Source: Fidelibacterota bacterium (lineage in GTDB: Bacteria; Fidelibacterota; Marinisomatia; Marinisomatales; JACNKV01). From it: a DNA stretch of 57,541 bases. Made by a program: the position numbers and the translations under genes. Below the pieces are notes generated by a model, which saw only the letters and a list, made by a program, of their open reading frames with translations, was not told the origin of the DNA and made no database searches. The stretch covers positions 1-57,541 of the forward strand of contig JACNKV010000075.1 in assembly GCA_014381855.1 (NCBI GenBank). Direction: 5' to 3'. Positions 7,359 through 19,548 of the stretch are shown in pieces. Positions within the stretch are counted from its first letter, which is position 1, and the number at the start of each line of letters is the position of its first letter.

Positions 7359-7374
7359 TGGCACAGTATTTGCT
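7359..7374 (+). promoter_or_regulatory. sigma-54 (-24/-12) promoter
   Basis: TGGCACAGTATTTGCT matches the TGGCAC-N5-TTGC consensus at every conserved position. It lies about 60 nt upstream of ATG 7433, and a sigma-54 activator is encoded divergently. Confidence 0.85.
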
Positions 7375-7432: not shown

Positions 7433-8812
7433 ATGAAGAAAACAATCATATCACTTCTGGCTTTTATCGTTCTGATCGGATCATTATCTGCAACAGAATT
7501 CAAAGTCGGTGGTGTGTATACAGCTTGGGCACAAAACCAACAAGCTTTCAATCTTGATGCAGATAATTACAACATGAATTATGTTGTTCAGATGCTCCGG
7601 TTTAAAGTACAAGGAATTGCAAGCGAAAATGTGAAGTTTGTAACCCGTTTTGATATGGCACAAGGTTGGTGGGGTGTTGACAATATGCTCCGCGGAGTCG
7701 AACGATGGGAAAAGACAGGCGCGAGTAGTCTGTTTGACTTTAAAGACTCTAACTATTTGATGCATGTTGATCAAGCTTACGTAGATTTTAACATGGATGT
7801 TTATCATAAAATCAATGTGAAAATCGGTCGTCAGTGGTTTGGTTTAGGAAACAAATTAATGGTAGACAACAACTACGATGGTATTCAGTTAAATGCCAAA
7901 GGACTAACTCTTGGTTGGGCAAAAGTATCTGAAGGCGCTGACAATACGACTGATGAAGGATTGCACAATGGTGATTCAGATCTATACTTAGCTAACTACA
8001 AAAAAGCTATTGGTAGTTTATCATTGAATGCTTTTGGGTTTTTGTACAAAGAAAACATCACAGATGAAGATCTTACTGCATATATTTTAGATGATCTTCA
8101 ATTCTTTAGAAATCGTGACGCTGCAACCGTTACTGAGTTAACTGCTTTCGGATTGTCCGGTACATATAAAGCTGGTGCTTTAACAGCTGATTTTGAATTT
8201 GATTATCTGACAGGTAAAGATGGTATCAATGACTTAGACCTCAGTGGTTATAATGCGTACACCAAGCTTGGGTACAAAATGAGTGATAAAATCAAACTTG
8301 GCGGTATCTTTGGAATGGGTTCCGGAGATGATGCATCTGAAGTTGGTTATACAAATGTAAATAAACTTCGCACATCCGGTTTCTTCTATATGACTGAAAT
8401 TTGGGAAGACTCCATTATGCCGGATGAAGAAGGTATTACTCCACAAGGTCTCGGTGCACCTAACGTAAGAGCCTATCGCGAGCTCGAAAACACAACCATC
8501 CTTCAAGGAAATGTTGATTTTAAAGTTTGTGATAAAACTTCAATCTTTTTATCAGGTAGTTATATCTTAGCATCAAATGAGATTAAAGAAGCTGATGGTG
8601 AAGGTAACTACTTTGCAGGTGAAACTGGCTCTACTGATCTTGGGACAGAAGTTGACTTTAGGATTAAACACGTGATTCAAAAAGGTTTATTCCTGATGCT
8701 TCGCGGTGGATACTTCATTCCTGGTGATGCAGCCGGTTATTTGATTAATGGTCATGCTAATGACATGGATCCGGCTTATGAACTTAAAGGAATGGTTGTC
8801 TATAAGTTCTAA
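7433..8812 (+). CDS. outer-membrane beta-barrel porin-like protein
   Basis: 459 aa with a signal peptide (MKKTIISLLAFIVLIGSLSA). Alternating amphipathic strand pattern rich in G/Y/D/N. C-terminal 'VVYKF' aromatic terminus typical of OM barrels. Confidence 0.6.
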   Translation: MKKTIISLLAFIVLIGSLSATEFKVGGVYTAWAQNQQAFNLDADNYNMNYVVQMLRFKVQGIASENVKFVTRFDMAQGWWGVDNMLRGVERWEKTGASSLFDFKDSNYLMHVDQAYVDFNMDVYHKINVKIGRQWFGLGNKLMVDNNYDGIQLNAKGLTLGWAKVSEGADNTTDEGLHNGDSDLYLANYKKAIGSLSLNAFGFLYKENITDEDLTAYILDDLQFFRNRDAATVTELTAFGLSGTYKAGALTADFEFDYLTGKDGINDLDLSGYNAYTKLGYKMSDKIKLGGIFGMGSGDDASEVGYTNVNKLRTSGFFYMTEIWEDSIMPDEEGITPQGLGAPNVRAYRELENTTILQGNVDFKVCDKTSIFLSGSYILASNEIKEADGEGNYFAGETGSTDLGTEVDFRIKHVIQKGLFLMLRGGYFIPGDAAGYLINGHANDMDPAYELKGMVVYKF

Positions 8813-8828: not shown

Positions 8829-8854
8829 GCAAGGGTGGCAATCGTCACCCTTGC
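8829..8854 (+). terminator. stem-loop (partial terminator or attenuator) after the porin gene
   Basis: GCAAGGGTG-N8-CACCCTTGC forms a 9-bp GC-rich stem followed by TTATTT. It sits 20 nt before the next start codon. Confidence 0.55.
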
Positions 8855-8876: not shown

Positions 8877-9254
8877 ATGAAAAACAAAAAATATGTGGTG
8901 GTAATAAGTTGTGCTGTCTTGGGGATGATTATAGGCTTATGGTCATGTTGTAATCCACCTGCACTTCAGGTGCAATCCACCGAAATTCACGAAGATGTTG
9001 ACTTCAGCCTTGGTTGTACAGAATGCCATGAAGAAGAGACACCTGACATTTTTGAAGATTGGGCAATCAGTGGTCACGGAGCAATGAATTATGGCTGTTA
9101 TATTTGCCATGGAGATGGAACTATAGAATTTTATCCTGAGCCTTCAATTGATGGATGTACATCCTGTCACGAATCTGCTGCTGGACATTTAATGAGAGTA
9201 GAGAATGATGGTTGTTTCGAATGTCATGACGGTCACTCTCTTGAACCATATTAA
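8877..9254 (+). CDS. small tetraheme c-type cytochrome (NapM-like), probable lipoprotein
   Basis: Four CxxCH motifs (CTECH, CYICH, CTSCH, CFECH). Hydrophobic N-terminus ends in 'LWSCC'. ATG 8877 is preceded by AAAAGGAAG. The tracked GTG 8835 start would run through the hairpin. Confidence 0.8.
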   Translation: MKNKKYVVVISCAVLGMIIGLWSCCNPPALQVQSTEIHEDVDFSLGCTECHEEETPDIFEDWAISGHGAMNYGCYICHGDGTIEFYPEPSIDGCTSCHESAAGHLMRVENDGCFECHDGHSLEPY

Positions 9255-9265
9255 GGAGAATAATA

Positions 9266-11548
9266 ATGAATAAAAAACAAACACGTAGAGAATTTATTAA
9301 AGTTACCGCAGCTGCTTCAACAGCAGCAGGAATTGGCGTTACGCTATTTCCCGGAATGACTTTTGCTGATCAAAAAAGCGGCACCAACTGGCATAAATCA
9401 GTTTGCAGGTATTGCGGAGTCGGTTGTGGTGTTATGATTGGTGAAAAAGGTGGCAAAATCGTTAAAGTAAAAGGCGACGCTCAAAACACGATTAACAAAG
9501 GTCATCTTTGTGTGAAAGCATTTTATCTGCCAAAAGCAGTCAATGCTAAAACAAGGTTGCACCATCCTATGATTCGGAAAAACGGTAAATTGGTCAAAGC
9601 TTCTTGGGATGAAGCAATGAAACTGGTCGCAACCAAATTTAACGATATCCGAAAAAATCATGGCGGCAATGCATTGGCATTTTATGGTTCCGGGCAAGCT
9701 GAGACAGAAGAAACCTATATGGCAAACAAATTGTTCAAGGGCTGTATCGGTACCAACAATGTCGAAGGAAACCCAAGACTTTGTATGGCAAGTGCTGTGG
9801 GTGGATATTTGACTAGTTTAGGGGCTGATGAACCCGCCGGAACGTATGAAGACATCGAAAAAACAGAATTGTTTTTTCTTGCCGGTTCAAATACTGCTGA
9901 GGCACATCCCATTGTGTTTGAGCGAATCATGCGGCATAAAGCGATGAATCCGAATGTTAAAATAATCATTTTGGATCCACGTAAAACACCGACAGATCAA
10001 GTTGCTGATTTGCACCTCTTTCCTAAACCGGGATATGACTTAGCCGTTTTTAATGCAATGGCACATATCTTGATAAAAGAAGGATTTGCAGATGATGCCT
10101 TTATCAAGAATCATTTGTTCTTTAAGGATAATAAGAAAAACAAACATTCCTTTGAAGAATACAAAAAGTTCTTAGAGGACTATACTCCGGAGATAGCAGA
10201 AGAAATCAGTGGCGTTCCTGCAAAGGATATTGTCAAAGCAGCCCGGATGTTCGGTAAAGCCAAAACGGCTATGAGTATGTGGACAATGGGTTTAAATCAG
10301 CGTAAACGCGGAGTATGGGCAAACAATCTGGTTCATAACTTACATCTTATTACAGGTAAAATCGGTGTGCCTGGCAGTGATTCGTTTTCACTGACCGGAC
10401 AGCCAAATGCCTGCGGTGGTGTTCGTGAAGGTGGTGGTCTATGTCATCTGCTTCCTGGGCATCATCTTGTCGTAAAAGAAGCCCATCGTGAAAAGGTTGC
10501 AAAAGTTTGGGGAGTCCCCGCAAGCAACATTCAACCTAAACCGGGTAAACATACAATAGCAATGTTCTCAGCTTTAAATGCCGGAGAGATTAAAGGAATG
10601 TATATCATGTGTACAAATCCTGCTCAATCTCTGCCGAATGCGAAAAAATATTGGAAAGGCTTGAAAGAACAGTTTATTGTGGTGGCCGAATCATTCTTCC
10701 CAACGATGACTACTGAATATGCTGATGTTGTTTTACCAGCTTCATTCTGGACCGAAAAAGAAGGGGTTTACGGATGTACGGAAAGACGCTCTCAGTATAT
10801 GCCTCAAATCACTGATCCGCAAGGCGAAGCAAAGTGGGATGCCTTCATCCTTCGTGACCTTGGTAAAGAAATGGGATTCGAAAGGGAATTTGCCAAATAT
10901 GAAACGGCAGAAATCATGTGGGACGAATATCGAGGTCTTACAAAAGGCAAAGATATGAACCTGATGGGAGCCTCTTATAATCGTTTGAAAAAAGTCCGTG
11001 GATTAGTATGGCCAGTTCCGACTGAAAATCATCCTGGAACCTACAAACGTTTTACAGATGGTGATCCAATTTACGATGCTCTCCCGGCTGAAAAGAAAAA
11101 GGGTCGTCGGATGTATTTCTACGGACCAAAAGCAAAAGATGGAAGGGCAACCGTTTGGATGCGTCCTCATGACGGTCCCGGAGAACCAACGAGTGCAGAA
11201 TATCCGTTCGCATTAACCACAGGCCGAATCCTGGAACAATGGCATACGATGACCATGACCGGTACGTCCCCTCAACTTAATAGGTCAGTACCTCATGCTT
11301 ATGTAGAGATTAATCCTGCAGACGCACGGAGTAAGGGAATAACGAATAAAGATCAAGTCATCATAGAGACTCGCAGAGGTGAAATGCAGTTTGAAGCACG
11401 AGTGATTGACAGACCAATCCCGGGTACAATTTTTGTCCCTTGGCATTGGCCTGATAAACCGATCAATGTGCTATGCAGCGATATCTTTGATCCGGGCTCT
11501 AAAGAACCGGAATATAAAGTCGCAGCTGCGAGAATCAGGAAAGTCTGA
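9266..11548 (+). CDS. napA: periplasmic nitrate reductase catalytic subunit, monomeric type (bis-MGD molybdoenzyme)
   Basis: Tat signal 'TRREFIKVTAAAS'. 4Fe-4S motif 'CRYCGVGCGV...C'. Mo-ligand region 'RLCMASAVGGY' as in Nap/Nas enzymes. 760 aa, followed by NapD/G/H-like genes. Confidence 0.85.
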   Translation: MNKKQTRREFIKVTAAASTAAGIGVTLFPGMTFADQKSGTNWHKSVCRYCGVGCGVMIGEKGGKIVKVKGDAQNTINKGHLCVKAFYLPKAVNAKTRLHHPMIRKNGKLVKASWDEAMKLVATKFNDIRKNHGGNALAFYGSGQAETEETYMANKLFKGCIGTNNVEGNPRLCMASAVGGYLTSLGADEPAGTYEDIEKTELFFLAGSNTAEAHPIVFERIMRHKAMNPNVKIIILDPRKTPTDQVADLHLFPKPGYDLAVFNAMAHILIKEGFADDAFIKNHLFFKDNKKNKHSFEEYKKFLEDYTPEIAEEISGVPAKDIVKAARMFGKAKTAMSMWTMGLNQRKRGVWANNLVHNLHLITGKIGVPGSDSFSLTGQPNACGGVREGGGLCHLLPGHHLVVKEAHREKVAKVWGVPASNIQPKPGKHTIAMFSALNAGEIKGMYIMCTNPAQSLPNAKKYWKGLKEQFIVVAESFFPTMTTEYADVVLPASFWTEKEGVYGCTERRSQYMPQITDPQGEAKWDAFILRDLGKEMGFEREFAKYETAEIMWDEYRGLTKGKDMNLMGASYNRLKKVRGLVWPVPTENHPGTYKRFTDGDPIYDALPAEKKKGRRMYFYGPKAKDGRATVWMRPHDGPGEPTSAEYPFALTTGRILEQWHTMTMTGTSPQLNRSVPHAYVEINPADARSKGITNKDQVIIETRRGEMQFEARVIDRPIPGTIFVPWHWPDKPINVLCSDIFDPGSKEPEYKVAAARIRKV

Positions 11549-11740
11549 CAACAGGTAAACTGCAGGAGGTTATAACAAACCTCATTTAGAGGTTATCTTT
11601 GGTTGTTGTGCGATTAATCGTTAAATAATCTCCTGCAGGATTTTCCGAGTTTACCTTGTTAATATCTAATTAATAACTGCTGACATACCTACGACATAAT
11701 GAATACGGTGAGCGTGGTTATGTCAGTTAATGCGAAATAA

Positions 11741-12316
11741 ATGACATCAGCTGATCATATCTCTCGCAGTGAATTTTTTAGTTCATTCATTACAAAAATA
11801 AAAAGTAGTTATTCCGGGACAGCAAAAAAGATTAGTGTTGTGGGTGATGTAGTTTTCCCCCCGGGTGTAACCGGCATTGATCACTTTTTATCGACGTGCA
11901 ACCGATGCGATAAATGCGTTGCTGCGTGTCCGCATGAATCCATTCGCATCTTACACGGAGACGAGGCAAAGTACTCAGGATATCCGATTATCGACTCTCA
12001 AATTCAGCCATGCTTTTTTTGCGGTGATTTTCCCTGTATTAGCGTATGCGATACCGGAGCCCTGATTAAACAAAATAATATGAAAATTGGTGTTGCCGAG
12101 ATTATCACAGAAAATTGTCTGGCACACTCCGGTAATTTTTGTCAAAGCTGCATTAACAATTGTCCGTTAATTGGGAAGGCAATTTTCTGCGGTACAAACG
12201 GAAAGCCGGAAATAAATAAAGAAGTTTGTAACGGCTGCGGGATCTGTGTTCAGGTTTGTCCCGCTGAGCCCGTTGGAATTATCATTAAACAAACGAAGGA
12301 ACTACCATGCCAATAG
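11741..12316 (+). CDS. napF: NapF-like poly-ferredoxin (4Fe-4S clusters)
   Basis: 191 aa with four Cys cluster motifs: 'CNRCDKCVAACP', 'CFFCGDFPCISVC', 'C..C..C...CP' and 'CNGCGICVQVCP'. A 'PPGV' motif precedes the first cluster. Confidence 0.65.
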   Translation: MTSADHISRSEFFSSFITKIKSSYSGTAKKISVVGDVVFPPGVTGIDHFLSTCNRCDKCVAACPHESIRILHGDEAKYSGYPIIDSQIQPCFFCGDFPCISVCDTGALIKQNNMKIGVAEIITENCLAHSGNFCQSCINNCPLIGKAIFCGTNGKPEINKEVCNGCGICVQVCPAEPVGIIIKQTKELPCQ

Positions 12317-12564
12317 CAGGTGTATTAATCTTAACCCAGCCAGAATTATCTGATAATGCGCTGGTAAAATTAAATAAAATGAACAAGGTTACTACCTACG
12401 GTATTCATAAAGAAAATTATATTATTGCCGTACTGGAGGGTAATTCCATATCCGAACTGGAGACCATTACCAATTCAATAACAAGCAAAATACCCGGTGT
12501 TATTGGGGTCTATCCGTCTTACGTGAATTATGAGGAAATAGAAACACAGGAATCCACAGAATAA
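12307..12564 (+). CDS. napD: NapD-like Tat-signal chaperone
   Basis: 85 aa. NapD-like pattern 'IAGVLILTQPE...IIAVLEG.S..E....I.....GVIGV'. Its position next to napA is typical. Confidence 0.75.
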   Translation: MPIAGVLILTQPELSDNALVKLNKMNKVTTYGIHKENYIIAVLEGNSISELETITNSITSKIPGVIGVYPSYVNYEEIETQESTE

Positions 12565-12576
12565 GGGTCTTTGTAA

Positions 12577-13092
12577 ATGTGGGATAACTGGTTAAACAAA
12601 TTAGCAGATTTAAGAGATCCTCTTAGACCTCCCGGTGCCGTTGAAGAAGATGAATTTCTTCAAAAATGTATCCGTTGCCGTAAGTGCGAAGAAGTGTGTC
12701 CTTTTGAATCTATCAAATCTGCGCATGGAGAATGGGGATTAAAAATGGGATCCCCGATTATTCACCCCAGAGATACTCCTTGTTATCTATGTGAAGATTT
12801 TCCTTGCATTGAATCTTGTCCAACGGAAGCTCTTGAGCCCATCAAGTCAAAAAATGATGTTAAAATGGGTATTGCTGTGATCGACAAAACACTCTGCTTT
12901 GCTTATAACGATATTCTGTGCCGCGCGTGTTTTGAGCGATGTCCAATACATAGAGAAGCGATAACGATGAAAGATGAATTATATCCGGTAGTAGATGAAA
13001 ATAAATGTGTCGGTTGCGGAATCTGTGAATATGTATGTCCTACTGAACAACCTGCCATTACTATCATTAGTTCACACAAGGTTGGCGGTTAA
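12577..13092 (+). CDS. napG: NapG-like poly-ferredoxin (4x 4Fe-4S)
   Basis: 171 aa. 'LRPPGA' motif, then 'CIRCRKCEEVCP', 'CYLCEDFPCIESCP', 'C..LCRACFERCP' and 'CVGCGICEYVCP'. Clear paralog of the 11741 gene. Confidence 0.7.
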   Translation: MWDNWLNKLADLRDPLRPPGAVEEDEFLQKCIRCRKCEEVCPFESIKSAHGEWGLKMGSPIIHPRDTPCYLCEDFPCIESCPTEALEPIKSKNDVKMGIAVIDKTLCFAYNDILCRACFERCPIHREAITMKDELYPVVDENKCVGCGICEYVCPTEQPAITIISSHKVGG

Positions 13093-13095
13093 AAT

Positions 13096-13944
13096 ATGAA
13101 GAAATTTGAAAAGTATCTAAATGACCATCTTCATATTTTAAGAAGGATGATGCAAGTGGGCACAGTTCTTTTTATTATCGCAGTTCCGTTACTGAATAAA
13201 ATAGGATATCATGGCGTAAACGGAACCTTTTACAGTTTAAGTATAGGTGAATTGAATATTGTAGACCCGGCTCTGGCATTGCAAACCATTCTACTGACAA
13301 AAAGTATATATCTACCATTAATTTTGGCAATTGTTTTGCCAATTCTTCTTGCTATGTTTCTTGGGAAAGTATTTTGCAGCTGGATGTGTCCTTATAATTT
13401 CCTCGCAGAGTTTACAGAAAAGTTTAGGAAACTAATCAAGCCGGTAGAAAAACAGAAAAATACGAATCCTAGCCCTCAATATTACTGGATAATTTTTGGA
13501 ATAATCCTGGTACTTTTAATGATTACCGGCATTCCGGTCATTACGTTGATTTCTATGCCAGGATTAATCACCTCTCAAATAGCAGATGGAATTCTCTACA
13601 ATGTTGTAGGTATCGAAATATTACTGATAGCATTGCTTTTAATCTTAGAAGTCTTTGTTGCACCAAGATTCTGGTGCAAATATGCTTGTCCGGTTGGAGC
13701 AACTTTATCCTTGGTTAAAACAAAATATGCACTCAAGATAAAATACAGCGCGAAAAGTTGTGCAGAATGTAAAGAAATTAAAGAAAATCCATGCAATCAA
13801 GTCTGTCCTTTGCAATTAAATCCTAAATCTGTGAAAATATATCCTTACTGTAATAACTGTTTTGAATGCATCACAACCTGTAATGATGTTGGCTGTCGTG
13901 CATTAAAAATTACTTTTCAACCATTGAAAACGAATAAACCATAA
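13096..13944 (+). CDS. napH: NapH-like membrane quinol-dehydrogenase Fe-S subunit
   Basis: 282 aa with four predicted TM helices. Two CxxxCP motifs ('CSWMCP', 'CKYACP'). C-terminal ferredoxin-type Cys clusters. Confidence 0.75.
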   Translation: MKKFEKYLNDHLHILRRMMQVGTVLFIIAVPLLNKIGYHGVNGTFYSLSIGELNIVDPALALQTILLTKSIYLPLILAIVLPILLAMFLGKVFCSWMCPYNFLAEFTEKFRKLIKPVEKQKNTNPSPQYYWIIFGIILVLLMITGIPVITLISMPGLITSQIADGILYNVVGIEILLIALLLILEVFVAPRFWCKYACPVGATLSLVKTKYALKIKYSAKSCAECKEIKENPCNQVCPLQLNPKSVKIYPYCNNCFECITTCNDVGCRALKITFQPLKTNKP

Positions 13945-13959
13945 GGAGGAAGAATCTAT

Positions 13960-14427
13960 ATGGTAAAGAAAAAGAAAGTGAAACTTAATAGAAGAGAGTT
14001 TTTCAAAAAGACCGGTTACCTTGGCATAATAGCCTTGGGTATTGGAGCTTTTTTGAAAAATATCTTCTTATATATCTCACCAGAACAGAAAGAAAAGACC
14101 TACCACAAGTATCTTGTTGGGAAGAAAAATCAAATACTTCCGGGTAAGGCAAAAGAGATCACCATTCAAGGTAAACCGGTGTTTGTTGTAAACCAAGGAA
14201 CGGAATTCAAAGTGTTTTCCGGTGTTTGCACACACCTTGGATGCATTATCAAATGGGAAGAAAACAACGACGGTTTTTATTGTCCGTGTCATCAAGGATT
14301 TTTTGATAAATCCGGACGTGTTGTCTCTGGTCCGCCACCGACACCGCTAACAGAATTCCCAGTTGTAGAAGAGAAGAACCTAATCTACATCCAGGTGGAA
14401 GATAAAAAGAAAGGACCCTGGGCATGA
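13960..14427 (+). CDS. Rieske 2Fe-2S protein (Tat-anchored)
   Basis: 'NRREFFKKTG' twin-arginine region plus a TM helix. Rieske boxes 'CTHLGC' and 'CPCHQG'. Confidence 0.88.
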   Translation: MVKKKKVKLNRREFFKKTGYLGIIALGIGAFLKNIFLYISPEQKEKTYHKYLVGKKNQILPGKAKEITIQGKPVFVVNQGTEFKVFSGVCTHLGCIIKWEENNDGFYCPCHQGFFDKSGRVVSGPPPTPLTEFPVVEEKNLIYIQVEDKKKGPWA

Positions 14428-15458
14428 GTACTACATGGACAAAGACACGCATCCCCATTGACGGTGGGAAAATAAAAGAAGCGATGTTTGGTGAGAAAAT
14501 TCCACTCCATATGAAGAATTGGGTTCTCGCAATGGGTACAACACCATTCATTTTGTTCCCATTACAAATTATCACCGGAATATTACTGGCATTATATTTT
14601 GTCCCTTCTGTGGAAATGGCTTACGAAAGTGTCCGGCATATTTCGCAGGATATTCGATATGGATTTTGGATACGAGGTATTCATCACTGGGGAGCAAATC
14701 TGATGGTCATTTCTCTATTTCTCCATATGATGCGAGTGTTTTTCACTCATTCATACAGAAAGCCACGAGAAATCAATTGGGTATTTGGATTCCTATTGCT
14801 GTCTCTGACATTGACAATCTCGTTTACCGGTTATTCTTTAACCTATAATCAGGTGTCTTATTGGGCTGCAACAGTCGGAACAAATCTTGTTAAGGAAATC
14901 CCATTAATCGGAGGATTTGTGCTCAGCCTTCTACGAGGAAGTGAAGGGGTTACGGCTCATACACTAACCAGGTTTTACACGTTGCATGTGTGGATATTGC
15001 CTGTAGTGATATCACTTATCATCGGTGCACATATCTTTTTAGTTCGGTCGCACGGTGTATCAGAACCTGATGGATTTGAAAAAGGTCACTACGATTTCTA
15101 TCCTGGACATTTCTACAAAATTATTGTTGTAACACTGTTCCTGATTTCGTTATTGAGTTTACTGTCTGTGGTCTTACCACCTGGACTTGGTGAACAGGCA
15201 GACCCGGCGAACACCCCGCTTCACATTAAACCTGAGTGGTATTTCTTCCCTGTGTTTTTGATTTTACGATTTGTCCCGTTACAACTTGGATTAGCCATCA
15301 CAGGACTGGCAATTGTTTTGATGATATTCTGGCCATTCATTGAGCCGATGTTATCAAAGAAGAAAAAATCACGCACAGTCATAGCAAACATCATTGGATG
15401 TATCGCGATTGTCATCTTAATTACACTTACAATCTTTGAAGCATTTTCAATCATTTAA
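14424..15458 (+). CDS. cytochrome b (b6 plus subunit-IV-like fusion) of a Rieske/cyt b complex
   Basis: 344 aa and polytopic. 'RGIHHWGANLM' and 'FYTLHVWILP' heme-ligand helices. 'PEWYF' motif as in the cyt b/b6f Qo region. ATGA overlap with the Rieske gene. Confidence 0.88.
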   Translation: MSTTWTKTRIPIDGGKIKEAMFGEKIPLHMKNWVLAMGTTPFILFPLQIITGILLALYFVPSVEMAYESVRHISQDIRYGFWIRGIHHWGANLMVISLFLHMMRVFFTHSYRKPREINWVFGFLLLSLTLTISFTGYSLTYNQVSYWAATVGTNLVKEIPLIGGFVLSLLRGSEGVTAHTLTRFYTLHVWILPVVISLIIGAHIFLVRSHGVSEPDGFEKGHYDFYPGHFYKIIVVTLFLISLLSLLSVVLPPGLGEQADPANTPLHIKPEWYFFPVFLILRFVPLQLGLAITGLAIVLMIFWPFIEPMLSKKKKSRTVIANIIGCIAIVILITLTIFEAFSII

Positions 15459-15476
15459 TAAGAAAGAGGAATAACA

Positions 15477-17090
15477 ATGGAAAATAAAAACATAACACAA
15501 TGGTTAATCGGCGTCTTTAGTCTTGTCATGATCGTTTCTTTGATGATCGTAGCCGGTTATGAAGTAAATAAAACAAAAGAACAAGGGCATGAGATTGACG
15601 TTGACAAAGTATCTGCCCGTTGTATCACGTGCCATGAAAAAGAAAACATTGCTGTGAAGCAAATTCACGCATGGGAAGAAAGTGAACATGCATTAATGGG
15701 CATCGGCTGCAACGAATGTCATGAAGCAAAAGAAGGCGATTTTGATGCCTTTTACTGCGAAAACAGCGATATGCTTGTCGGTCGTCATCCTACTCCAAAA
15801 GACTGTGAGGAATGCCACGATCAGGAAGTAAAAGAATTTGCGAACAGTAAACATGCCCATCAGTTCTGGCTTTTTGCTAATGCGGATAGGGCGACATTTG
15901 AAAATCCAATTTCTACCAGACATGGATGTGAACAATGCCACCAAATTGGGAATTTATGGCCTGACGGTAGTGTCGGAGAATGTGACGCTTGCCATTCCAA
16001 ACATTCATTCGATTTAGCAGTTGCACGTCAACCTGAAACATGCGGAGAATGCCACATTGGACCTGACCATCCCCATATTGAGATTTACAATGAATCTAAA
16101 CACGGAAATATTTTCAAAGCCAAAGGCAGCGATTGGGCCATGGATTATCATACAGACAACTTTGAACCCATCCCAATTGAAGCTCCGGTTTGTGCCACCT
16201 GCCATATGGATGGGAACGAAACACAACCCATGACACACGACGTCAGTGCTCGTTTGGCGTGGGAGTCTCAGTCTCCGTGGAGTTATAGAACTGTTTGGGA
16301 TGAAGAAAACCTTGGTAGCTGGGATATGAAACGTGGTCGCATGGAATCAATCTGCCAGAGTTGCCATGCACCTGATTTTGTTGATACATATTTGTTAACA
16401 GCTGATTTAGTCAATCTTCAGTATAATGAAATGCGAAGAAACTTTGTTTATTGGACAAAGAAATTGACCAATAATGGGACGATAGATCGGTTGAAAGCAA
16501 ATGGTGAATTTAAATCCAATCCTGTCCTCAATGGATGGGACGAAACACCGGAGCATGAAATGTATTATGCCTGGCATCATGAAGGTCGACGTTTTCGTCA
16601 TGGAGCTGAAATGATGGGAGCAGATTTCACCCAATGGCACGGCGTCTGGGAACTCCAAGAAGATATGGTTGAATTAATTACTTGGGCCGCAGAACATGGG
16701 GACCATGAAGCAGAAAAATGGGTTATTTCTAATCATCCTTCCAAGTTTGTTCCGTATGCACTTTACGACATCCCGGGCAATGCATGGGGTATTGGGGCAA
16801 AAACAAATACCACTCCGTTTGTTTATAACGAATACTCAGATTATTGGGATCGGGTCAAGGCAAATGTGAAGACAGCCTATGAGAAAGGACTGCTTACAAA
16901 AGATCAGTGGAATCTGTGGATGGATCGATACGAAAATAAGGACCATTATCTTGGATTAAAATATGCAAATGATCCTAAAGTCGTAGAAAAATGGGATTTC
17001 TACAAAGAACGTAATGCCATTGATACAAAGGCTTTCAAAGAACAAGCTGTTCAATTAAAGTTACCCGGAAAGCCCTTCTACACTAAATAA
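15477..17090 (+). CDS. membrane-anchored octaheme c-type cytochrome, hydroxylamine-oxidoreductase (HAO) family-like
   Basis: Eight CxxCH motifs (CITCH, CNECH, CEECH, CEQCH, CDACH, CGECH, CATCH, CQSCH). HAO-like segment 'CGECHIGPDHPHIEIYNESKHG'. N-terminal TM helix. Confidence 0.75.
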   Translation: MENKNITQWLIGVFSLVMIVSLMIVAGYEVNKTKEQGHEIDVDKVSARCITCHEKENIAVKQIHAWEESEHALMGIGCNECHEAKEGDFDAFYCENSDMLVGRHPTPKDCEECHDQEVKEFANSKHAHQFWLFANADRATFENPISTRHGCEQCHQIGNLWPDGSVGECDACHSKHSFDLAVARQPETCGECHIGPDHPHIEIYNESKHGNIFKAKGSDWAMDYHTDNFEPIPIEAPVCATCHMDGNETQPMTHDVSARLAWESQSPWSYRTVWDEENLGSWDMKRGRMESICQSCHAPDFVDTYLLTADLVNLQYNEMRRNFVYWTKKLTNNGTIDRLKANGEFKSNPVLNGWDETPEHEMYYAWHHEGRRFRHGAEMMGADFTQWHGVWELQEDMVELITWAAEHGDHEAEKWVISNHPSKFVPYALYDIPGNAWGIGAKTNTTPFVYNEYSDYWDRVKANVKTAYEKGLLTKDQWNLWMDRYENKDHYLGLKYANDPKVVEKWDFYKERNAIDTKAFKEQAVQLKLPGKPFYTK

Positions 17091-17149: not shown

Positions 17150-17177
17150 GTTGGGGTTGTCAATTGGCAGCCCCAAC
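17150..17177. terminator. GC-rich hairpin after the octaheme cytochrome gene
   Basis: GTTGGGGTTG-N8-CAGCCCCAAC forms a 10-bp stem with one G-U pair. No T-tract follows on the + strand, so its terminator function is uncertain. Confidence 0.4.
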
Positions 17178-17180
17178 AAA

Positions 17181-17280
17181 ACTCCGAGTTCGACAACCTG
17201 TCCTCGTGTGAGCATGGTTTAGAACCGATAGGGTGGAGTTGGAAACGGCTTCGCCTCCCGCGCTTGGAAAGGAGCACATA
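17181..17280 (+). promoter_or_regulatory. candidate Moco (molybdenum cofactor) riboswitch, translational OFF type
   Basis: P1 pairs CUCC (17182-85) with GGAG (17271-74), sequestering the SD AAAGGAG. Internal helices are 17185-88/17203-06, 17216-26 and 17232-38/17249-55. The 3' core CUUCGCCUCCCGCGCUUGGAAAGGAG resembles the E. coli moaA Moco motif as I remember it; this was not computed. Confidence 0.6.
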
Positions 17281-19548
17281 ATGAAATACATACAAAAAAT
17301 ATCCTTAATTATATTATTCATCTTGTCGTATACATTCTGCAACACCGAAATATCCGGGATTGTAAGAGACGAACACAATAATCGACTGCTTGAGGGATGC
17401 AATATTACCCTGGAGGGTACGAAAATTGGTGTCACCACAAATCAATCCGGACACTATTGTTTCAACGATGTCGAACCGGGGATGTATACTCTTTGTGCAG
17501 AGTATATCGGTTACATAACCACCGTAGAAACTATTCAGGTAAATATAGACCAAACTTTGAATATTGACTTCTGCCTATCTCCTACTGTAATCAAAGGAAA
17601 TGAAGTGGTGGTCACTGCAACAAGAACAGAGCATAGATTAGTGGATATCCCCGGAAGAATAGATGTGGTTACACACGCTGAGTTAAATAGTCTGCCTACC
17701 CAAAATCTAGATGACATTCTAAAATACTTATCGGGTCTTAATGTCCATCGAACTTCAGGGATATTTGAGATCAGACCGGTTGTAAGTTTGCGCGGAGTTT
17801 CAGGAGATGAACCGGGAAGAACTTTGGTGTTAGTCAACAGCACTCCAATTAATAAATCTGATACTGGAGTGGCAAACTGGAACAGAATCAATGTAGCAAA
17901 TATAAAACAAATTGAAATCTTCAAAGGCGCCGGTTCATCTCTGTACGGGAATAACGCCATGGGAGGAGTGATAAATATTATCACTCAAACTCCAGATGAC
18001 AATTTTAGCGGAAAGGCTCATGCTTCATACGGAACCTATAATACATTGAGTGGAAACCAATATATTTCAGGCCGGAAGAATGCTTATTATTATAATTTTG
18101 GTTGGTTCACACGCAAAAGCGATGGGTATTATGACCTTCCTGATAGTTTACAGGATGACTATTCAGTCCCGCTATTTCTAGATGAAAAAGGGATATCAAC
18201 TACAGTAGGATTTAATTTTACTCCTAATAATACTTTTGAAATCATTTATGATTATTACGACGATAAACGAGGTGAAGGTGTAAAAATCGAAGAAAAAGAC
18301 GGAAAGCATCGCAGCTTCGATACAAATATGTTACAAGTAAAATTAACTGGGAAAAATAAAAAGTCCAGATACGAAATAAACGGATTTTATCAACATGAGA
18401 ATTATTTAAGAGTAAGTGAAGATTTTAAAAATGGCTCATATTATAAATTTGATGTCGCTTCAAACCGAATTGATAGAGGGGTGTTATTTAATTATACTCG
18501 TGATATAGGTAGCTATCATTTAATCACTGTTGGCTCAGAATTGAAATCCGGGAGTGTCGATGGTGGTGATTATTATGCCACGCCTGACACCACCCCGCGT
18601 GATACGGTTTTAAATCGTGGTAAAATGCAATTCAGAACATTATATCTGCAGGATGAGTTCAATCTTTTTGGCAACAAACTGCGGTTTGTTGCCGGAATCC
18701 GATATGATAATGTAAAATTCCATCAGGGATATTTCCATGCCAACCTGGAATCAAATCCTTTCTATTCTTACAATGGTCATCTTGATGAAAATGAGTGGAA
18801 TGCAATGAGTCCAAGAGTAGCCGTGAAATATCATTTTGGAAACCAAATGAGTGGTTATCTTTCTTACTCTCAAGGTTTCCGTGCTTCGATACTTGACGAT
18901 TTATGTCGTTCGGGGTGGATGCGGCTTGGACCGAAAGAAGCCAATCCAGACCTAGGTCCCGAAACAATAGACAGTTATGAACTTGGGTTAGATTATTCAC
19001 CGACTTCAAATGTAAAAATATCCCCTTCATTCTATTTTTCGAAAGGACACGATTTTCTATATTTTGTTGCTACCGGTGATTCACTTTGGGGTAGAAAGCC
19101 CATCTACAGAAGAGAAAATATAACCGGAGTTGATATTTATGGTGCTGAAATCGATTTTACATTCAGACCAAATCATAATATTTCGCTTCATGGTAATTAT
19201 TCGTATAATCACTCGACAATATTTGAATTTTCTAAAAACCCGGAATTGGAGGAAAACTATTTAGTTTACTCCCCTATTCATCAAGCCAATGCAACAATGC
19301 AGTGGAGGAACAAGTATTTAAACATTAATTTTGGAATTAACTATAAAGATAAACAATTCACTAACGATGATAATTCTGAAGAATTGGCTGCATATTATAC
19401 CATAGATGCCCAGCTGTCAAAAGTACTGTATAAAAAAGTCAACATAGCCATCGATTTTCAGAATATTACAGATATAAGACAGACAGAACATTTAGAAAGG
19501 CTTTCCCCTGGAAGATTAATCAATTTGATGCTATCATACGATTGGTAG
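17281..19548 (+). CDS. TonB-dependent receptor with N-terminal CarboxypepD_reg-like domain
   Basis: Signal peptide MKYIQKISLIILFILSYTFC. Plug domain ('VVVTATRTEH', 'IEIFKGAGSSLYGNNAMGGVINIIT'). Long beta-barrel ending in 'LSYDW'. The tracked GTG 17233 start lies inside the leader RNA structure. Confidence 0.9.
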   Translation: MKYIQKISLIILFILSYTFCNTEISGIVRDEHNNRLLEGCNITLEGTKIGVTTNQSGHYCFNDVEPGMYTLCAEYIGYITTVETIQVNIDQTLNIDFCLSPTVIKGNEVVVTATRTEHRLVDIPGRIDVVTHAELNSLPTQNLDDILKYLSGLNVHRTSGIFEIRPVVSLRGVSGDEPGRTLVLVNSTPINKSDTGVANWNRINVANIKQIEIFKGAGSSLYGNNAMGGVINIITQTPDDNFSGKAHASYGTYNTLSGNQYISGRKNAYYYNFGWFTRKSDGYYDLPDSLQDDYSVPLFLDEKGISTTVGFNFTPNNTFEIIYDYYDDKRGEGVKIEEKDGKHRSFDTNMLQVKLTGKNKKSRYEINGFYQHENYLRVSEDFKNGSYYKFDVASNRIDRGVLFNYTRDIGSYHLITVGSELKSGSVDGGDYYATPDTTPRDTVLNRGKMQFRTLYLQDEFNLFGNKLRFVAGIRYDNVKFHQGYFHANLESNPFYSYNGHLDENEWNAMSPRVAVKYHFGNQMSGYLSYSQGFRASILDDLCRSGWMRLGPKEANPDLGPETIDSYELGLDYSPTSNVKISPSFYFSKGHDFLYFVATGDSLWGRKPIYRRENITGVDIYGAEIDFTFRPNHNISLHGNYSYNHSTIFEFSKNPELEENYLVYSPIHQANATMQWRNKYLNINFGINYKDKQFTNDDNSEELAAYYTIDAQLSKVLYKKVNIAIDFQNITDIRQTEHLERLSPGRLINLMLSYDW

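What the first reader, a model, noticed from the sequence alone, without database searches (positions are those of the whole stretch)
8877..17090. Composite nap cluster without NapC/NapB but with an appended Rieske / cytochrome b / octaheme module
Seen directly: nine co-directional genes, with gaps mostly of 30 nt or less or overlapping. The one exception is the 192-nt napA-napF spacer.
- Gene order: tetraheme cytochrome, Tat-dependent NapA (760 aa), NapF-like, NapD, NapG-like, NapH-like, Rieske, cytochrome b, octaheme cytochrome.
- No NapC/NrfH-type tetraheme quinol dehydrogenase and no diheme NapB is encoded here.

Established knowledge: monomeric NapA with a NapM tetraheme partner and NapGH is known from the Desulfovibrio napCMADGH cluster. 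Rieske/cyt b complexes genetically linked to HAO-like octahemes are, as far as I recall, a hallmark of anammox bacteria (Kuenenia R/b clusters).

Inference: two quinol-oxidising modules (NapGH and Rieske/cyt b) feed a nitrate reductase and a putative nitrite- or hydroxylamine-converting octaheme enzyme. One regulon could therefore take nitrate to ammonium, or handle other N-oxide chemistry. The combination looks unusual.
Basis: partly seen in the sequence, partly recalled or inferred. Interest (0 to 1): 0.78.

Follow-up and report, generated by a model that had tools for sequence, protein, structure and literature searches.

The report
Nitrate-to-ammonium respiration gene island
An uncultured marine bacterium (Marinimicrobia) carries a gene block for a periplasmic nitrate reductase followed by a membrane quinol-oxidising complex with an eight-heme enzyme that probably reduces nitrite; the block is real and widespread, but the same layout was described in Caldithrix abyssi in 2017.

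Summary
Nine co-directional genes lie at 8877-17090: NapM-like tetraheme, Tat-NapA, NapF-like, NapD, NapG-like, NapH, Rieske, cytochrome b and an HAO-family octaheme. The 57.5-kb window holds no NapB, NapC/NrfH or NrfA.

The layout is not new. Kublanov et al. 2017 (PMC5317091) described the same nine-gene order in Caldithrix abyssi (Cabys_2564-2556). They proposed Nap plus a Rieske/cyt b-fed octaheme nitrite reductase.

Comparison of 80 related loci adds the following:
- The block is two modules, [porin-napM-A-(F)-D-G-H] and [Rieske-cyt b-octaheme]. They are fused in Marinimicrobia, Calditrichota and KSB1, and separate but neighbouring in Ignavibacteria. The triad stands without nap in Thermodesulfobacteriota.
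- All 59 Rieske/cyt b-linked octahemes keep a conserved N-terminal membrane helix. Unlinked relatives have cleavable signal peptides.
- The window's octaheme has Phe where hydroxylamine oxidoreductase has its cross-linking Tyr467.
- A conserved sigma-54 promoter sits upstream of the porin gene. A divergent haem-sensor kinase and NtrC-type regulator lie next to it.

Best reading: a sigma-54-controlled nitrate-to-nitrite-to-(probably) ammonium pathway, in which the octaheme takes the cytochrome c1 slot of the Rieske/cyt b complex. This is a new member of a known but biochemically untested kind.

The parts
3261..3857 (-). MobA-like NTP transferase, probably Mo-cofactor guanylyltransferase for the bis-MGD cofactor of NapA. 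It lies downstream of the kinase and regulator genes.
   Evidence: PF12804, 83.9 bits. The functional link to NapA is an inference.
3861..5240 (-). NtrC-type response regulator: receiver domain, sigma-54 AAA+ activator domain and Fis-type HTH.
   Evidence: PF00072, PF00158 (232.9 bits) and PF02954.
5237..7153 (-). Sensor histidine kinase with a periplasmic Tll0287-like domain that carries one CxxCH haem motif, then HAMP, PAS, HisKA and HATPase domains. It is divergent from the cluster.
   Evidence: Pfam and the CLNCH motif. Homologues lie divergently next to the cluster in most related loci. One also lies next to the nap-less triad in L056.
7359..7374 (+). Sigma-54 -24/-12 promoter element TGGCACAGTATTTGCT, ending 59 nt upstream of the porin ATG.
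   Evidence: It is the only zero-mismatch match in the window. An equivalent element lies upstream of the porin gene in 25 of 34 loci, against 0.3% per locus in shuffles.
7433..8812 (+). Outer-membrane beta-barrel porin, the first gene of the unit. It is conserved immediately upstream of napM in every phylum examined.
   Evidence: Weak PF13372/PF07642 hits, synteny, no PDB relative. A role in nitrate/nitrite passage is an inference.
8829..8854 (+). GC-rich hairpin (11 pairs) followed by TTATTT. It looks like a terminator, attenuator or mRNA-stabilising element between the porin gene and napM. Only 22 nt remain before the napM ATG.
   Evidence: A hairpin at the same place, with a different sequence, occurs in Marinimicrobia and Calditrichota loci. 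It is absent in Ignavibacteria.
8877..9254 (+). NapM-like periplasmic tetraheme cytochrome c. It has a probable lipoprotein signal (LWSC).
   Evidence: 4 CxxCH; PF14537. It sits before napA as in published napM clusters. Lipobox-like Cys in Marinimicrobia orthologues.
9266..11548 (+). NapA, a Tat-exported monomeric-type periplasmic nitrate reductase (Mo-bisMGD, one 4Fe-4S cluster).
   Evidence: Best NCBIfam hits are NapA. PDB 2NAP/2JIO at E 1e-234 over the full length; Cys173/Met174 and the NACGGVR Arg align with Cys140/Met141/Arg354.
11549..11740 (+). Structured 192-nt napA-napF spacer of unknown role.
   Evidence: MFE -58 kcal/mol, z = -4.87. The long CTGCAG...CTGCAG stem is kept in L027 although the spacer as a whole has diverged (74% mean column identity, with indels). 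No Rfam match.
11741..12316 (+). NapF-like poly-ferredoxin, probably cytoplasmic.
   Evidence: Fer4 domains. The N-terminus is SRSEFF (SRKxFF in orthologues) with no hydrophobic region, a vestigial Tat-like motif. The comparison with E. coli NapF is from memory.
12307..12564 (+). NapD, the Tat-signal chaperone of NapA.
   Evidence: PF03927, 35.1 bits against a cut-off of 28.
12577..13092 (+). NapG-like four-cluster ferredoxin without any signal peptide.
   Evidence: Best NCBIfam hit is NapG at 158.9 bits, below the cut-off of 269. The N-terminus starts just before the RPPGA motif in all orthologues.
13096..13944 (+). NapH-like integral membrane Fe-S protein with two CX3CP motifs and C-terminal Cys clusters.
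   Evidence: TIGR02163 at 119.9 bits (cut-off 213) and PF12801. Motifs read from the sequence.
13960..14427 (+). Rieske 2Fe-2S subunit with a Tat motif and membrane anchor (NRREFFKK...).
   Evidence: PF00355. CTHLGC...CPCHQG motifs. The RR motif is conserved in orthologues.
14424..15458 (+). Cytochrome b, a fused b6 plus subunit-IV type. It has PEWY and four His ligands. It has no Cys for haem ci.
   Evidence: PF00033 and PF00032. PDB b6/b hits at E about 1e-47. Motifs read from the sequence.
15477..17090 (+). HAO-family octaheme cytochrome c with an N-terminal transmembrane helix. It occupies the cytochrome c1 gene slot. Putative nitrite reductase.
   Evidence: 8 CxxCH and PF13447. Fold matches only HAO-family structures, best 6H5L and 4QO5. 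Asp197-His198 are invariant; Phe384 aligns opposite Tyr467. The conserved TM helix occurs only in Rieske/cyt b-linked members.
17170..17290 (+). Molybdenum/tungsten-cofactor riboswitch. It marks the start of the next, separately regulated unit and so bounds the cluster.
   Evidence: RF01055 at 70.4 bits against 36, E about 1e-15, full length. It is conserved after hao in 7 related loci.
17281..19548 (+). TonB-dependent outer-membrane receptor under the riboswitch. The true start is ATG 17281, which lies inside the riboswitch 3' end.
   Evidence: Pfam Plug and TonB barrel domains. The riboswitch alignment covers the SD sequence and the ATG.

Best explanation
This is a nitrate-respiration island of an uncultured Neomarinimicrobiota (Marinimicrobia) bacterium, and it is built from two modules.

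Module 1 comprises the porin, NapM, NapA, NapF-like, NapD, NapG-like and NapH genes. It makes a NapB- and NapC-independent, Desulfovibrio-type monomeric periplasmic nitrate reductase that reduces nitrate to nitrite. NapD and NapF mature NapA. NapM is the periplasmic haem donor. NapH with NapG connects to the quinol pool by a route that is still unclear.

Module 2 comprises the Rieske, cytochrome b and octaheme genes. It is a bc-type quinol oxidase in which the gene slot and role of cytochrome c1 are taken by a membrane-anchored, non-cross-linked HAO-family octaheme. Electrons would flow from menaquinol to the Rieske cluster, then through the octaheme haem chain to catalytic haem 4. There nitrite is reduced, most likely to ammonium. 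The step could conserve energy through a Q cycle.

Regulation: a haem-containing sensor kinase and an NtrC-type regulator drive a sigma-54 promoter upstream of the porin gene.

Shown here: gene identities, conserved active-site residues, synteny, promoter conservation, and the correlation between the membrane anchor and Rieske/cyt b linkage.

Inferred: substrates and product, physical association of the octaheme with Rieske/cyt b, proton-motive operation, the signal that is sensed, and co-transcription.
For: Gene identities:
- Pfam and NCBIfam domain calls.
- NapA matches monomeric D. desulfuricans NapA at E 1e-234 with the Mo-ligand Cys and the Arg conserved.

The octaheme is a reductive-type HAO-family protein:
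- Its structural matches are exclusively HAO family. The best are the 'reducing HAO-like' Kustc0458 (6H5L) and IhOCC (4QO5).
- The Asp-His catalytic pair is invariant.
- The residue aligned with cross-link Tyr467 is Phe in the window. It varies freely across the family, Y 80 and F 39 of 119.

The block is modular:
- The nap and Rieske/cyt b/octaheme genes are contiguous in about 21 loci.
- In Ignavibacteria the triad and the porin-nap block are separate.
- In about 12 Thermodesulfobacteriota-type loci the triad stands alone without nap.
- napMADGH occurs without Rieske/cyt b in Deferribacter. Its relative D. autotrophicus, with the same cluster type, ammonifies nitrate.

The octaheme belongs to the Rieske/cyt b complex:
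- No other c-type cytochrome gene accompanies Rieske/cyt b, and hao sits in the petC position.
- All 59 Rieske/cyt b-linked octahemes share a conserved 20-residue N-terminal TM helix.
- Unlinked relatives (about 52% identical) have cleavable signal peptides. Two unlinked close relatives have replaced N-termini.
- The structure model shows one long N-terminal helix.

The context is nitrate/nitrite respiration:
- Besides nap, a signal-peptide variant sits next to NarI, two MFS transporters and an Rrf2 regulator.
- C. abyssi, which has the identical cluster and no NrfA, reduces nitrate to ammonium.

Regulation:
- The response regulator is a sigma-54 activator.
- The sigma-54 element lies upstream of the porin gene in 25 of 34 loci.
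- It is never found upstream of napM, napA or hao.
- It lies upstream of Rieske only where the triad is separate: 12 Ignavibacteria-type loci have it, and 0 of 26 fused loci do.
Against: - No biochemical or transcript data exist for any member of this clade.
- The NapG-like protein lacks an export signal in every locus. How NapH/NapG would deliver electrons to periplasmic NapM/NapA is therefore unexplained.
- The alignment around Tyr467 is of low confidence, and two thirds of the family do have Tyr there.
- The closest structural relative, Kustc0458, makes NO rather than ammonium according to the literature cited.
- A Rieske centre is a high-potential donor, whereas the haems of reductive multihaem enzymes are usually low-potential. 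A classical Q cycle is therefore not guaranteed. This point rests on established knowledge, not on a test here.
- A conserved terminator-like hairpin follows the porin gene, so co-transcription of nap and hao with the sigma-54 promoter is not certain.
- NapG and NapH hits are below NCBIfam equivalog cut-offs.
Confidence: 0.6

Rival explanations
1. The Rieske/cyt b complex is the quinol dehydrogenase for both enzymes, passing electrons to NapM (and on to NapA) as well as to the octaheme. This is one of the options proposed for C. abyssi. The signal-less NapG-like and NapF-like proteins would work with NapH on the cytoplasmic side, in maturation or redox balancing rather than in respiratory electron delivery.
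For: - NapG-like and NapF-like proteins have no functional export signal in any locus.
- E. coli NapH carries its Fe-S clusters on the cytoplasmic side. This is recalled from the literature and was not checked here.
- nap and Rieske/cyt b are contiguous, or within about 4 kb of each other, in all FCB loci.
- Kublanov et al. proposed this route.
Against: - The triad occurs without nap in about 12 loci.
- napMADGH occurs without any Rieske/cyt b in Deferribacter.
- In Ignavibacteria each module has its own sigma-54 promoter.
- The conserved TM helix ties the octaheme, not NapM, to Rieske/cyt b.
Confidence: 0.25
2. The octaheme is not an ammonifying nitrite reductase. Either it reduces nitrite only to NO, as reported for Kuenenia HAOr/Kustc0458, or it mainly detoxifies hydroxylamine and NO. 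In that case the island is not a complete nitrate-to-ammonium pathway.
For: - Kustc0458 (6H5L) is the top structural match and the second-best profile match.
- The literature describes it as NO-forming. Its homologue Kuste4574 is a subunit of an anammox Rieske/cyt b complex.
Against: - C. abyssi, with the same cluster and no other nitrite reductase, produces ammonium.
- The window holds no nor or nos genes.
- IhOCC (4QO5) is the best sequence match. It is reported to reduce nitrite and hydroxylamine to ammonium; that is my recollection and was not checked here.
Confidence: 0.12
3. The octaheme is a genuine oxidative hydroxylamine or hydrazine oxidoreductase that feeds electrons into the quinone pool. 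This is what automatic annotation ('hao', 'hdh') implies.
For: - KEGG-style labels in metagenome studies of Marinimicrobia and JGI names.
- A weak NCBIfam hit to hydrazine dehydrogenase, 64 bits against a cut-off of 900.
Against: - Phe stands at the position aligned with the cross-linking Tyr.
- The window holds no ammonia monooxygenase or hydrazine synthase genes.
- The gene is embedded in nitrate-reductase loci.
- Rieske/cyt b complexes oxidise quinol. This point rests on established knowledge.
Confidence: 0.03

Closest known systems
Caldithrix abyssi nap/Rieske-cyt b/epsilon-Hao cluster Cabys_2564-2556 (Kublanov et al. 2017, PMC5317091)
   Same: It has the same nine genes in the same order, with no napB or napC. 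The published model is also the same: Nap reduces nitrate, the octaheme reduces nitrite, and Rieske/cyt b oxidises quinol. A Caldithrix MAG locus (L016) is syntenic, with 75% octaheme and 76% NapA identity.
   Different: - The phylum differs (Marinimicrobia).
- NapM here has a lipoprotein-like signal.
- A Moco-riboswitch-controlled TonB receptor follows hao here.
- I read the first Fe-S protein as NapF-like, with a vestigial Tat motif and no hydrophobic region. The second scores as NapG-like. The paper names the first one NapG and assigns it a Tat signal.
Desulfovibrio desulfuricans napCMADGH (monomeric NapA; PDB 2NAP)
   Same: It shares a monomeric-type NapA (E 1e-234), a NapM tetraheme, NapD, NapG without a Tat signal, NapH, and the absence of NapB.
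   Different: - The window has no NapC.
- The window has an extra NapF-like gene.
- A porin gene and the Rieske/cyt b/octaheme genes are appended.
Epsilon-Hao of Campylobacterota (Nautilia, Campylobacter, Caminibacter), the 'reverse HURM' nitrite reduction
   Same: It is an HAO-family octaheme without an obligatory Tyr cross-link, genetically linked to nap, and proposed or shown to reduce nitrite and hydroxylamine to ammonium.
   Different: - As far as I recall, those enzymes are soluble and are not encoded with a Rieske/cyt b pair.
- Here the protein is membrane-anchored and always follows Rieske-cyt b.
- Phylogenetic membership in the epsilon-Hao clade was not tested.
Anammox Rieske/cyt b complex R/b-3 (kuste4569-4574) with HAO-like subunit Kuste4574
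   Same: A Rieske/cyt b complex that includes a membrane-bound HAO-like octaheme, presumed to reduce nitrite. Activity is unproven there too.
   Different: - Anammox complexes carry further subunits and are thought to yield NO for hydrazine synthesis.
- There is no nap linkage.
- The octaheme here is only about 20% identical to the solved homologue Kustc0458.
NrfAH / NrfABCD cytochrome c nitrite reductase systems
   Same: They do the same overall job expected here: quinol-dependent six-electron reduction of nitrite to ammonium in the periplasm.
   Different: - The catalytic protein is unrelated in family (pentahaem with a CxxCK haem).
- The quinol dehydrogenase differs (NrfH or NrfBCD).
- It has no Q-cycle-type complex.
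- No nrf genes lie in the window.
IhOCC of Ignicoccus hospitalis (PDB 4QO5)
   Same: It is the best sequence match among solved structures (E 2e-25 with the single sequence, 3e-40 with the profile). It is a non-cross-linked HAO-like octaheme.
   Different: - It is archaeal.
- It is about 20% identical.
- Any genomic link to Rieske/cyt b or nap was not examined here.

Membership tests
Periplasmic nitrate reductase, monomeric NapA / napM-type cluster | NapA has a Tat signal, an N-terminal 4Fe-4S Cys motif, a Mo-ligand Cys and the active-site Met/Arg. | tested here: met
   TRREFIK motif. Cys173/Met174 and the Arg in NACGGVR align with Cys140/Met141/Arg354 of 2JIO.
Periplasmic nitrate reductase, monomeric NapA / napM-type cluster | NapA is closer to the NapB-independent Desulfovibrio NapA than to heterodimeric NapAB enzymes, Nas or Fdh. 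| tested here: met
   2NAP/2JIO at E 1e-234 over the full length, against 2NYA at 3e-146, 3ML1 at 3e-141 and FdhF at about 1e-135. The NCBIfam NapA score of 644 bits is below the equivalog cut-off of 904, which was trained on NapAB-type enzymes. No tree was built.
Periplasmic nitrate reductase, monomeric NapA / napM-type cluster | The NapD chaperone is present. | tested here: met
   PF03927 at 35.1 bits against 28.
Periplasmic nitrate reductase, monomeric NapA / napM-type cluster | A NapM tetraheme is encoded next to napA. | tested here: inconclusive
   Four CxxCH, a signal sequence and the correct position. It is 33% identical to the Deferribacter protein that occupies the napM position. No curated NapM model exists to score against.
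Periplasmic nitrate reductase, monomeric NapA / napM-type cluster | A NapC/NrfH-type quinol dehydrogenase is present, as in D. desulfuricans napCMADGH. | tested here: not met
   No membrane tetraheme lies anywhere in the 57.5-kb window. The rest of the genome could not be tested.
NapGH quinol dehydrogenase | NapG is exported by the Tat pathway; NapH has CX3CP motifs and Fe-S clusters. | tested here: not met
   NapH features are present. The NapG-like protein has no signal peptide here or in any orthologue. Both score below NCBIfam cut-offs: 159 against 269, and 120 against 213.
Reductive (non-cross-linked) HAO-family octaheme, such as epsilon-Hao, IhOCC or HAOr | Eight CxxCH motifs and the HAO fold. 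| tested here: met
   8 motifs. PF13447 at 80.9 bits. All 11 significant Foldseek hits are HAO-family proteins, with TM about 0.5. Model pLDDT is 82.
Reductive (non-cross-linked) HAO-family octaheme, such as epsilon-Hao, IhOCC or HAOr | Catalytic Asp-His pair distal to haem 4. | tested here: met
   D197-H198 align with D267-H268 of N. europaea HAO. They are invariant in 119 family members.
Reductive (non-cross-linked) HAO-family octaheme, such as epsilon-Hao, IhOCC or HAOr | The cross-linking tyrosine (Tyr467 of N. europaea HAO) is absent. | tested here: inconclusive
   Tyr467 was located in the GGWTYTEGW motif. Profile-profile alignment puts window Phe384 opposite it, but in a low-confidence stretch where the loop is 9 residues shorter. 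The position is Y 80 and F 39 across the family. The window protein cannot form the link at that site. The free Y/F exchange argues against an obligatory link in the clade.
Reductive (non-cross-linked) HAO-family octaheme, such as epsilon-Hao, IhOCC or HAOr | Nitrite and/or hydroxylamine reduction activity. | not testable with these tools
   This needs enzyme assays. Only indirect support exists, from C. abyssi physiology.
Epsilon-Hao clade in the strict (phylogenetic) sense | The protein branches with the Campylobacterota enzymes. | not tested
   No Campylobacterota sequences were retrieved. The nearest named relatives are from the FCB group, Thermodesulfobacteriota and Deferribacteres.
Rieske/cytochrome b (bc1/b6f-type) complex | A Rieske protein with 2Fe-2S ligands and an anchor; a cytochrome b with four haem-ligand His residues and the PEWY Qo motif. 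| tested here: met
   CTHLGC...CPCHQG, the RR motif, the His pairs and PEWY were read. Supporting family hits: PF00355, PF00033 and PF00032; PDB b6/b at E about 1e-47.
Rieske/cytochrome b (bc1/b6f-type) complex | A dedicated mono- or dihaem cytochrome c subunit (c1, f or dihaem c). | tested here: not met
   No such gene is present. The third gene slot holds the octaheme. The complex therefore works like a bc complex but is not a canonical one.

The most novel reading that the evidence does not exclude
The Rieske-cyt b-octaheme triad encodes a distinct respiratory enzyme: a proton-motive menaquinol:nitrite oxidoreductase. In it a membrane-anchored HAO-family octaheme replaces cytochrome c1 and reduces nitrite to ammonium. 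This would make the nitrite step of ammonification energy-conserving, unlike NrfAH. It would also define a widespread, overlooked route in Marinimicrobia, Calditrichota, KSB1, Ignavibacteria and Thermodesulfobacteriota, one that current surveys mislabel as hydroxylamine or hydrazine oxidation. The idea was raised for Caldithrix in 2017. It has never been tested, and its breadth and anchor signature have not, to my knowledge, been described.
Probability: 0.45. Interest if true: 0.7.

Novelty: new member of a known kind. Interest (0 to 1): 0.4.

Why it matters
Marinimicrobia are abundant in oxygen-deficient seawater, where the fate of nitrate (loss as gas or retention as ammonium) matters for the marine nitrogen budget.

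If this module reduces nitrite to ammonium, nrfA-based gene surveys miss these organisms. Their 'hao' and 'hdh' annotations (for example) would then be read the wrong way round.

Mechanistically, a bc-type complex with a catalytic octaheme in place of cytochrome c1 would make nitrite reduction proton-motive.

None of this is new as a hypothesis (PMC5317091). What is useful here is the comparative evidence that sharpens it, together with the cultured organism C. abyssi in which it can be tested.

Tried and rejected
1. I tried to obtain a full-length N. europaea HAO by searching the large protein collection with a 243-aa fragment. The search returned only proteins of 425 aa or less. I rebuilt residues 124-544 from PDB alignments instead.
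2. Single-sequence and profile searches against the PDB stop before the Tyr467 region. Only a global profile-profile alignment reaches it, and with low confidence.
3. A strict sigma-54 pattern (..TTGC[AT]) found only 3 of 34 loci. Reading the sequences showed a looser TGG[CT]A[CTG]-N5-TTG element.
4. The longest uncharged stretch did not separate anchors from signal peptides. The distinction rests on reading the sequences: the conserved helix followed by E-x-K-K, against an AxA cleavage site.
5. An Rfam search of the napA-napF spacer and the porin-napM hairpin found nothing above threshold.
6. The porin has no relative among solved structures.
7. Literature searches for 'epsilon Hao' with Rieske, and for the Moco riboswitch with TonB-dependent receptors, returned nothing.
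8. I considered that the NapA-like enzyme might be an assimilatory nitrate reductase or a formate dehydrogenase. I rejected this on the Tat signal, the NapD gene, the active-site residues and the much stronger match to NapA.

Full report
**1. Observation**

The nine genes are present as described.
- 8877-9254: tetraheme cytochrome with 4 CxxCH.
- 9266-11548: NapA, 760 aa, with the Tat motif TRREFIK.
- 11741-12316: an Fe-S protein.
- 12307-12564: NapD.
- 12577-13092: a second Fe-S protein.
- 13096-13944: NapH-like protein.
- 13960-14427: Rieske protein.
- 14424-15458: cytochrome b.
- 15477-17090: cytochrome with 8 CxxCH.

Pfam and NCBIfam agree with these identities. The intergenic gaps are 11, 192, -10, 12, 3, 15, -4 and 18 nt.

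A six-frame scan of the whole window for CxxCH finds only these two multihaem proteins, plus a single haem motif in a sensor kinase. The window therefore encodes no NapB, NapC/NrfH or NrfA. The remaining large ORFs are housekeeping or unrelated metabolism.

**2. Prior description**

Kublanov et al. 2017 (PMC5317091) described Cabys_2564-2556 of Caldithrix abyssi as follows:
- The gene order is napM, napA, an Fe-S gene, two further genes, napH, Rieske, cytochrome b and an octaheme 'epsilon-Hao'.
- NapB, NapC and NrfA are absent.
- Rieske/cyt b and/or NapGH oxidise quinol, and the octaheme reduces nitrite to ammonium.

C. abyssi grows by reducing nitrate. Related napMADGH-hao clusters without NapB or NapC are described for Deferribacter.

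A recent paper notes that Kuste4574 is an HAO-like subunit of an anammox Rieske/cyt b complex whose activity is unproven.

**3. Who carries it**

The octaheme has 4895 detectable relatives in the protein collection. The closest named ones are Marinimicrobia (79-80% identical), KSB1, Calditrichia and Melioribacteraceae.

A scan of one genome per species returned 80 loci. L027 is 96% identical. L001 is an unnamed MAG, and L002 and L003 are named Neomarinimicrobiota MAGs. All three are 79-80% identical and share the flanking genes. On this basis I assign the window to that phylum.

**4. Two modules**

I searched the window's proteins against the 80 loci with tblastn.
- The order [kinase, divergent] porin-napM-napA-(napF-like)-napD-napG-like-napH-Rieske-cyt b-hao is contiguous in about 21 loci. 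These are labelled Neomarinimicrobiota, Calditrichota (including a Caldithrix abyssi MAG, L016), KSB1 and a few others.
- In eight Ignavibacteria/Melioribacteraceae loci, Rieske-cyt b-hao comes first. The block porin-napM-napA-napD-napG-like-napH follows about 4 kb later. A membrane protein, a PAS kinase and a sigma-54 regulator lie in between.
- In about 12 Thermodesulfobacteriota-type loci the triad stands alone, with cytochrome b split into b6 and subunit IV. It lies next to a kinase with the same haem sensor domain and an OmpR-type regulator.
- Octahemes about 52% identical (Deferribacter, Denitrovibrio, Desulfuromonadales) lack Rieske/cyt b. In Deferribacter the gene is divergent from napMADGH.
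- One close relative (L023, 71% identical) lacks Rieske/cyt b. It sits after NarI, two MFS transporters and an Rrf2 regulator.

In the loci where the neighbouring genes were examined or matched, the octaheme sits in nitrate/nitrite-respiration contexts. Rieske/cyt b travels with the octaheme rather than with nap.

**5. The nitrate reductase**

NapA matches the monomeric D. desulfuricans enzyme (2NAP/2JIO) end to end at E 1e-234. E. coli, Cupriavidus and Rhodobacter NapA score about 1e-146 to 1e-135, and formate dehydrogenases score lower still.

Mo-ligand Cys140, Met141 and Arg354 are conserved as Cys173, Met174 and the Arg of NACGGVR. This fits the absence of NapB.

The first Fe-S protein begins SRSEFF (SRKxFF in orthologues) and has no hydrophobic region. 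I read this as a vestigial Tat-like motif, as I recall for cytoplasmic E. coli NapF.

The second Fe-S protein scores better as NapG (159 against 94 bits). It starts directly before the RPPGA motif and has no signal peptide in any locus, including Deferribacter.

How NapH/NapG reach periplasmic NapM/NapA therefore remains open. Hitch-hiking of NapG on NapA is a possibility that I could not test.

**6. The octaheme**

- Sequence searches against solved structures hit IhOCC (4QO5) best, then Kuenenia and Nitrosomonas HAO-family proteins.
- An AlphaFold model (pLDDT 82) matches only HAO-family structures. The two best matches are 6H5L, titled 'reducing HAO-like protein complex', and IhOCC, which I recall as non-cross-linked. 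TM is about 0.5.
- The Asp-His pair aligned with Asp267-His268 is invariant.
- I located the cross-linking Tyr467 of N. europaea HAO in the motif GGWTYTEGW.
- A global profile-profile alignment places window Phe384 opposite Tyr467. That stretch is of low confidence, and the loop there is nine residues shorter.
- Across 119 family members the position is Tyr in 80 and Phe in 39, and it changes between close relatives.

This argues against an obligatory haem-tyrosine cross-link and so for the reductive type. It is not proof.

**7. The octaheme as the c-type subunit of Rieske/cyt b**

No other c-type cytochrome gene accompanies Rieske/cyt b, and hao occupies the position that petC/c1 has in bc operons.

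All 59 octahemes that follow Rieske/cyt b share an N-terminal 20-residue hydrophobic helix (consensus QQWLIGIFSxLLIVxLxIVAG) followed by E-x-K-K. None has a signal-peptidase site.

The unlinked relatives, about 52% identical, have classical cleavable signal peptides (for example ...SSAYA|A). Two close but unlinked relatives (L023, L036) have replaced N-termini.

The helix is more conserved than its flanks: mean column identity is 0.60, against 0.39 and 0.45.

The cytochrome b has the b6-type 14-residue His spacing in helix D and a PEWY motif. It has no Cys for haem ci.

That the complex runs a Q cycle and is proton-motive is an inference. The mismatch between a high-potential Rieske centre and the typically low-potential haems of reductive multihaem enzymes is a caveat.

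**8. Regulation**

The divergent operon encodes three proteins:
- a kinase with a Tll0287-like haem-c sensor domain;
- an NtrC-type sigma-54 activator;
- a MobA-like protein.

TGGCACAGTATTTGCT at 7359-7374 is the only perfect -24/-12 match in the window.

The distribution of an equivalent element across loci is informative:
- It lies within 200 nt upstream of the porin gene in 25 of 34 loci, against 0.3% per locus in shuffles.
- It is never found upstream of napM, napA or hao.
- It is absent upstream of Rieske in all 26 fused loci.
- It is present 55-70 nt upstream of Rieske in 12 Ignavibacteria-type loci, where the triad is separate.

This fits one sigma-54 regulon, with a single promoter in the fused arrangement.

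Against a simple single transcript, a GC-rich hairpin with a weak T run follows the porin stop codon at 8829-8854. Hairpins of different sequence occupy the same place in Marinimicrobia and Calditrichota. Only 22 nt separate the hairpin from the napM ATG, so napM must be reached by read-through or from a promoter inside the porin gene.

**9. Boundaries and extras**

- Downstream of hao lies a full-length Moco/Tuco riboswitch (RF01055, 70.4 bits) at 17170-17290.
- Its 3' end covers the SD sequence and ATG 17281 of a TonB-dependent receptor.
- The same riboswitch follows hao in all seven related loci that have this receptor.
- The 192-nt napA-napF spacer is strongly structured (z = -4.87) and partly conserved in L027. 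It has no Rfam match.

**10. Verdict**

The finding is real, and its functional reading largely agrees with the published model. It is a new, uncultured-phylum member of a known but biochemically untested cluster type, not a new kind.

The comparative results here favour a dedicated Rieske/cyt b-octaheme nitrite reductase alongside a self-contained NapM-type nitrate reductase, under sigma-54 control. Those results are modularity, the anchor signature, the Tyr/Phe site and the promoter pattern.

Confidence is about 0.6 for the overall mechanism. It is high for gene identities and moderate for product and complex formation.

Noticed in passing
window 17170-17290 (+) and 17281-19548 (+); also L001, L002, L005, L008, L011, L012, L027: A complete Moco/Tuco riboswitch (RF01055, 70.4 bits, P3 stem missing) overlaps the SD sequence and start codon of a TonB-dependent receptor directly after hao. 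The same pairing is conserved in seven related loci. It suggests cofactor-responsive outer-membrane uptake of Mo or W. A literature search for this pairing found nothing.
   Followed up: partly
window 5237-7153 (-); L056 6579-8207 (-); L077: The sensor kinase has a periplasmic Tll0287-like domain with one CxxCH haem motif. A kinase with the same motif (…RNPAMVTR…C-L-x-C-H…GYK…LRG) lies next to the nap-less triad in Thermodesulfobacteriota and near nap-hao in Deferribacter. It is a candidate nitrite, NO or redox sensor.
   Followed up: partly
window 7433-8812 (+): A 459-aa outer-membrane beta-barrel protein is always the first gene, directly before napM, in every phylum examined. It has only weak Alginate_exp/BBP2 hits and no solved relative. 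It is possibly a nitrate/nitrite porin.
   Followed up: partly
window 8829-8854 (+); the same position in L001-L026, L039, L072: A terminator-like GC hairpin lies right after the porin stop codon. Its position is conserved but its sequence is not. It is absent in Ignavibacteria, where the gap is 13-22 nt.
   Followed up: partly
window 11549-11740 (+): The 192-nt napA-napF spacer folds far better than shuffles (-58 kcal/mol, z -4.87). A long CTGCAG/CTGCAG stem is retained in L027 although the spacer as a whole has diverged. All related loci except three (L033, L038, L062) keep a gap of at least 54 nt after napA. There is no Rfam match.
   Followed up: partly
L023 5186-11590: A 71%-identical octaheme has a signal peptide instead of the membrane helix and has no Rieske/cyt b. 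It sits after NarI, two MFS (NarK-like) transporters and an Rrf2 regulator. This is independent support for a nitrite-related role.
   Followed up: partly
window 3261-3857 (-), 2576-3247 (+), 32311-33555 (-): A MobA-like gene lies downstream of the kinase and regulator genes; it would make the MGD cofactor of NapA. There is a hemerythrin-domain protein next to the island, and a DUF438-hemerythrin-PAS protein further away.
   Followed up: no
window 19560-20141 (+); L038 11649-12230: A 193-aa polytopic membrane protein after the TonB receptor is weakly similar (E 1e-5, 21% identity) to a 193-aa protein encoded between hao and the kinase in an Ignavibacteria locus. It has no Pfam family.
   Followed up: partly
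window 8877-8960 (+) and orthologues in L003, L005, L006, L011, L027: NapM of the Marinimicrobia group carries a lipobox-like Cys (LWSC, LISC, IAAC, IVSC), suggesting a lipid-anchored tetraheme. Calditrichota NapM has an ordinary signal peptide.
   Followed up: no
literature and database names: Metagenome studies and automatic pipelines label Marinimicrobia homologues as hydroxylamine oxidoreductase, hydrazine dehydrogenase or 'nitrate/TMAO reductase-like tetraheme cytochrome'. These labels probably misstate the direction and role of the enzyme.
   Followed up: no
protein collection search: A search with a 243-aa fragment of N. europaea HAO returned no protein longer than 425 aa and no 100% match. 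Full-length canonical HAOs appear to be missing or unreachable in that index.
   Followed up: no
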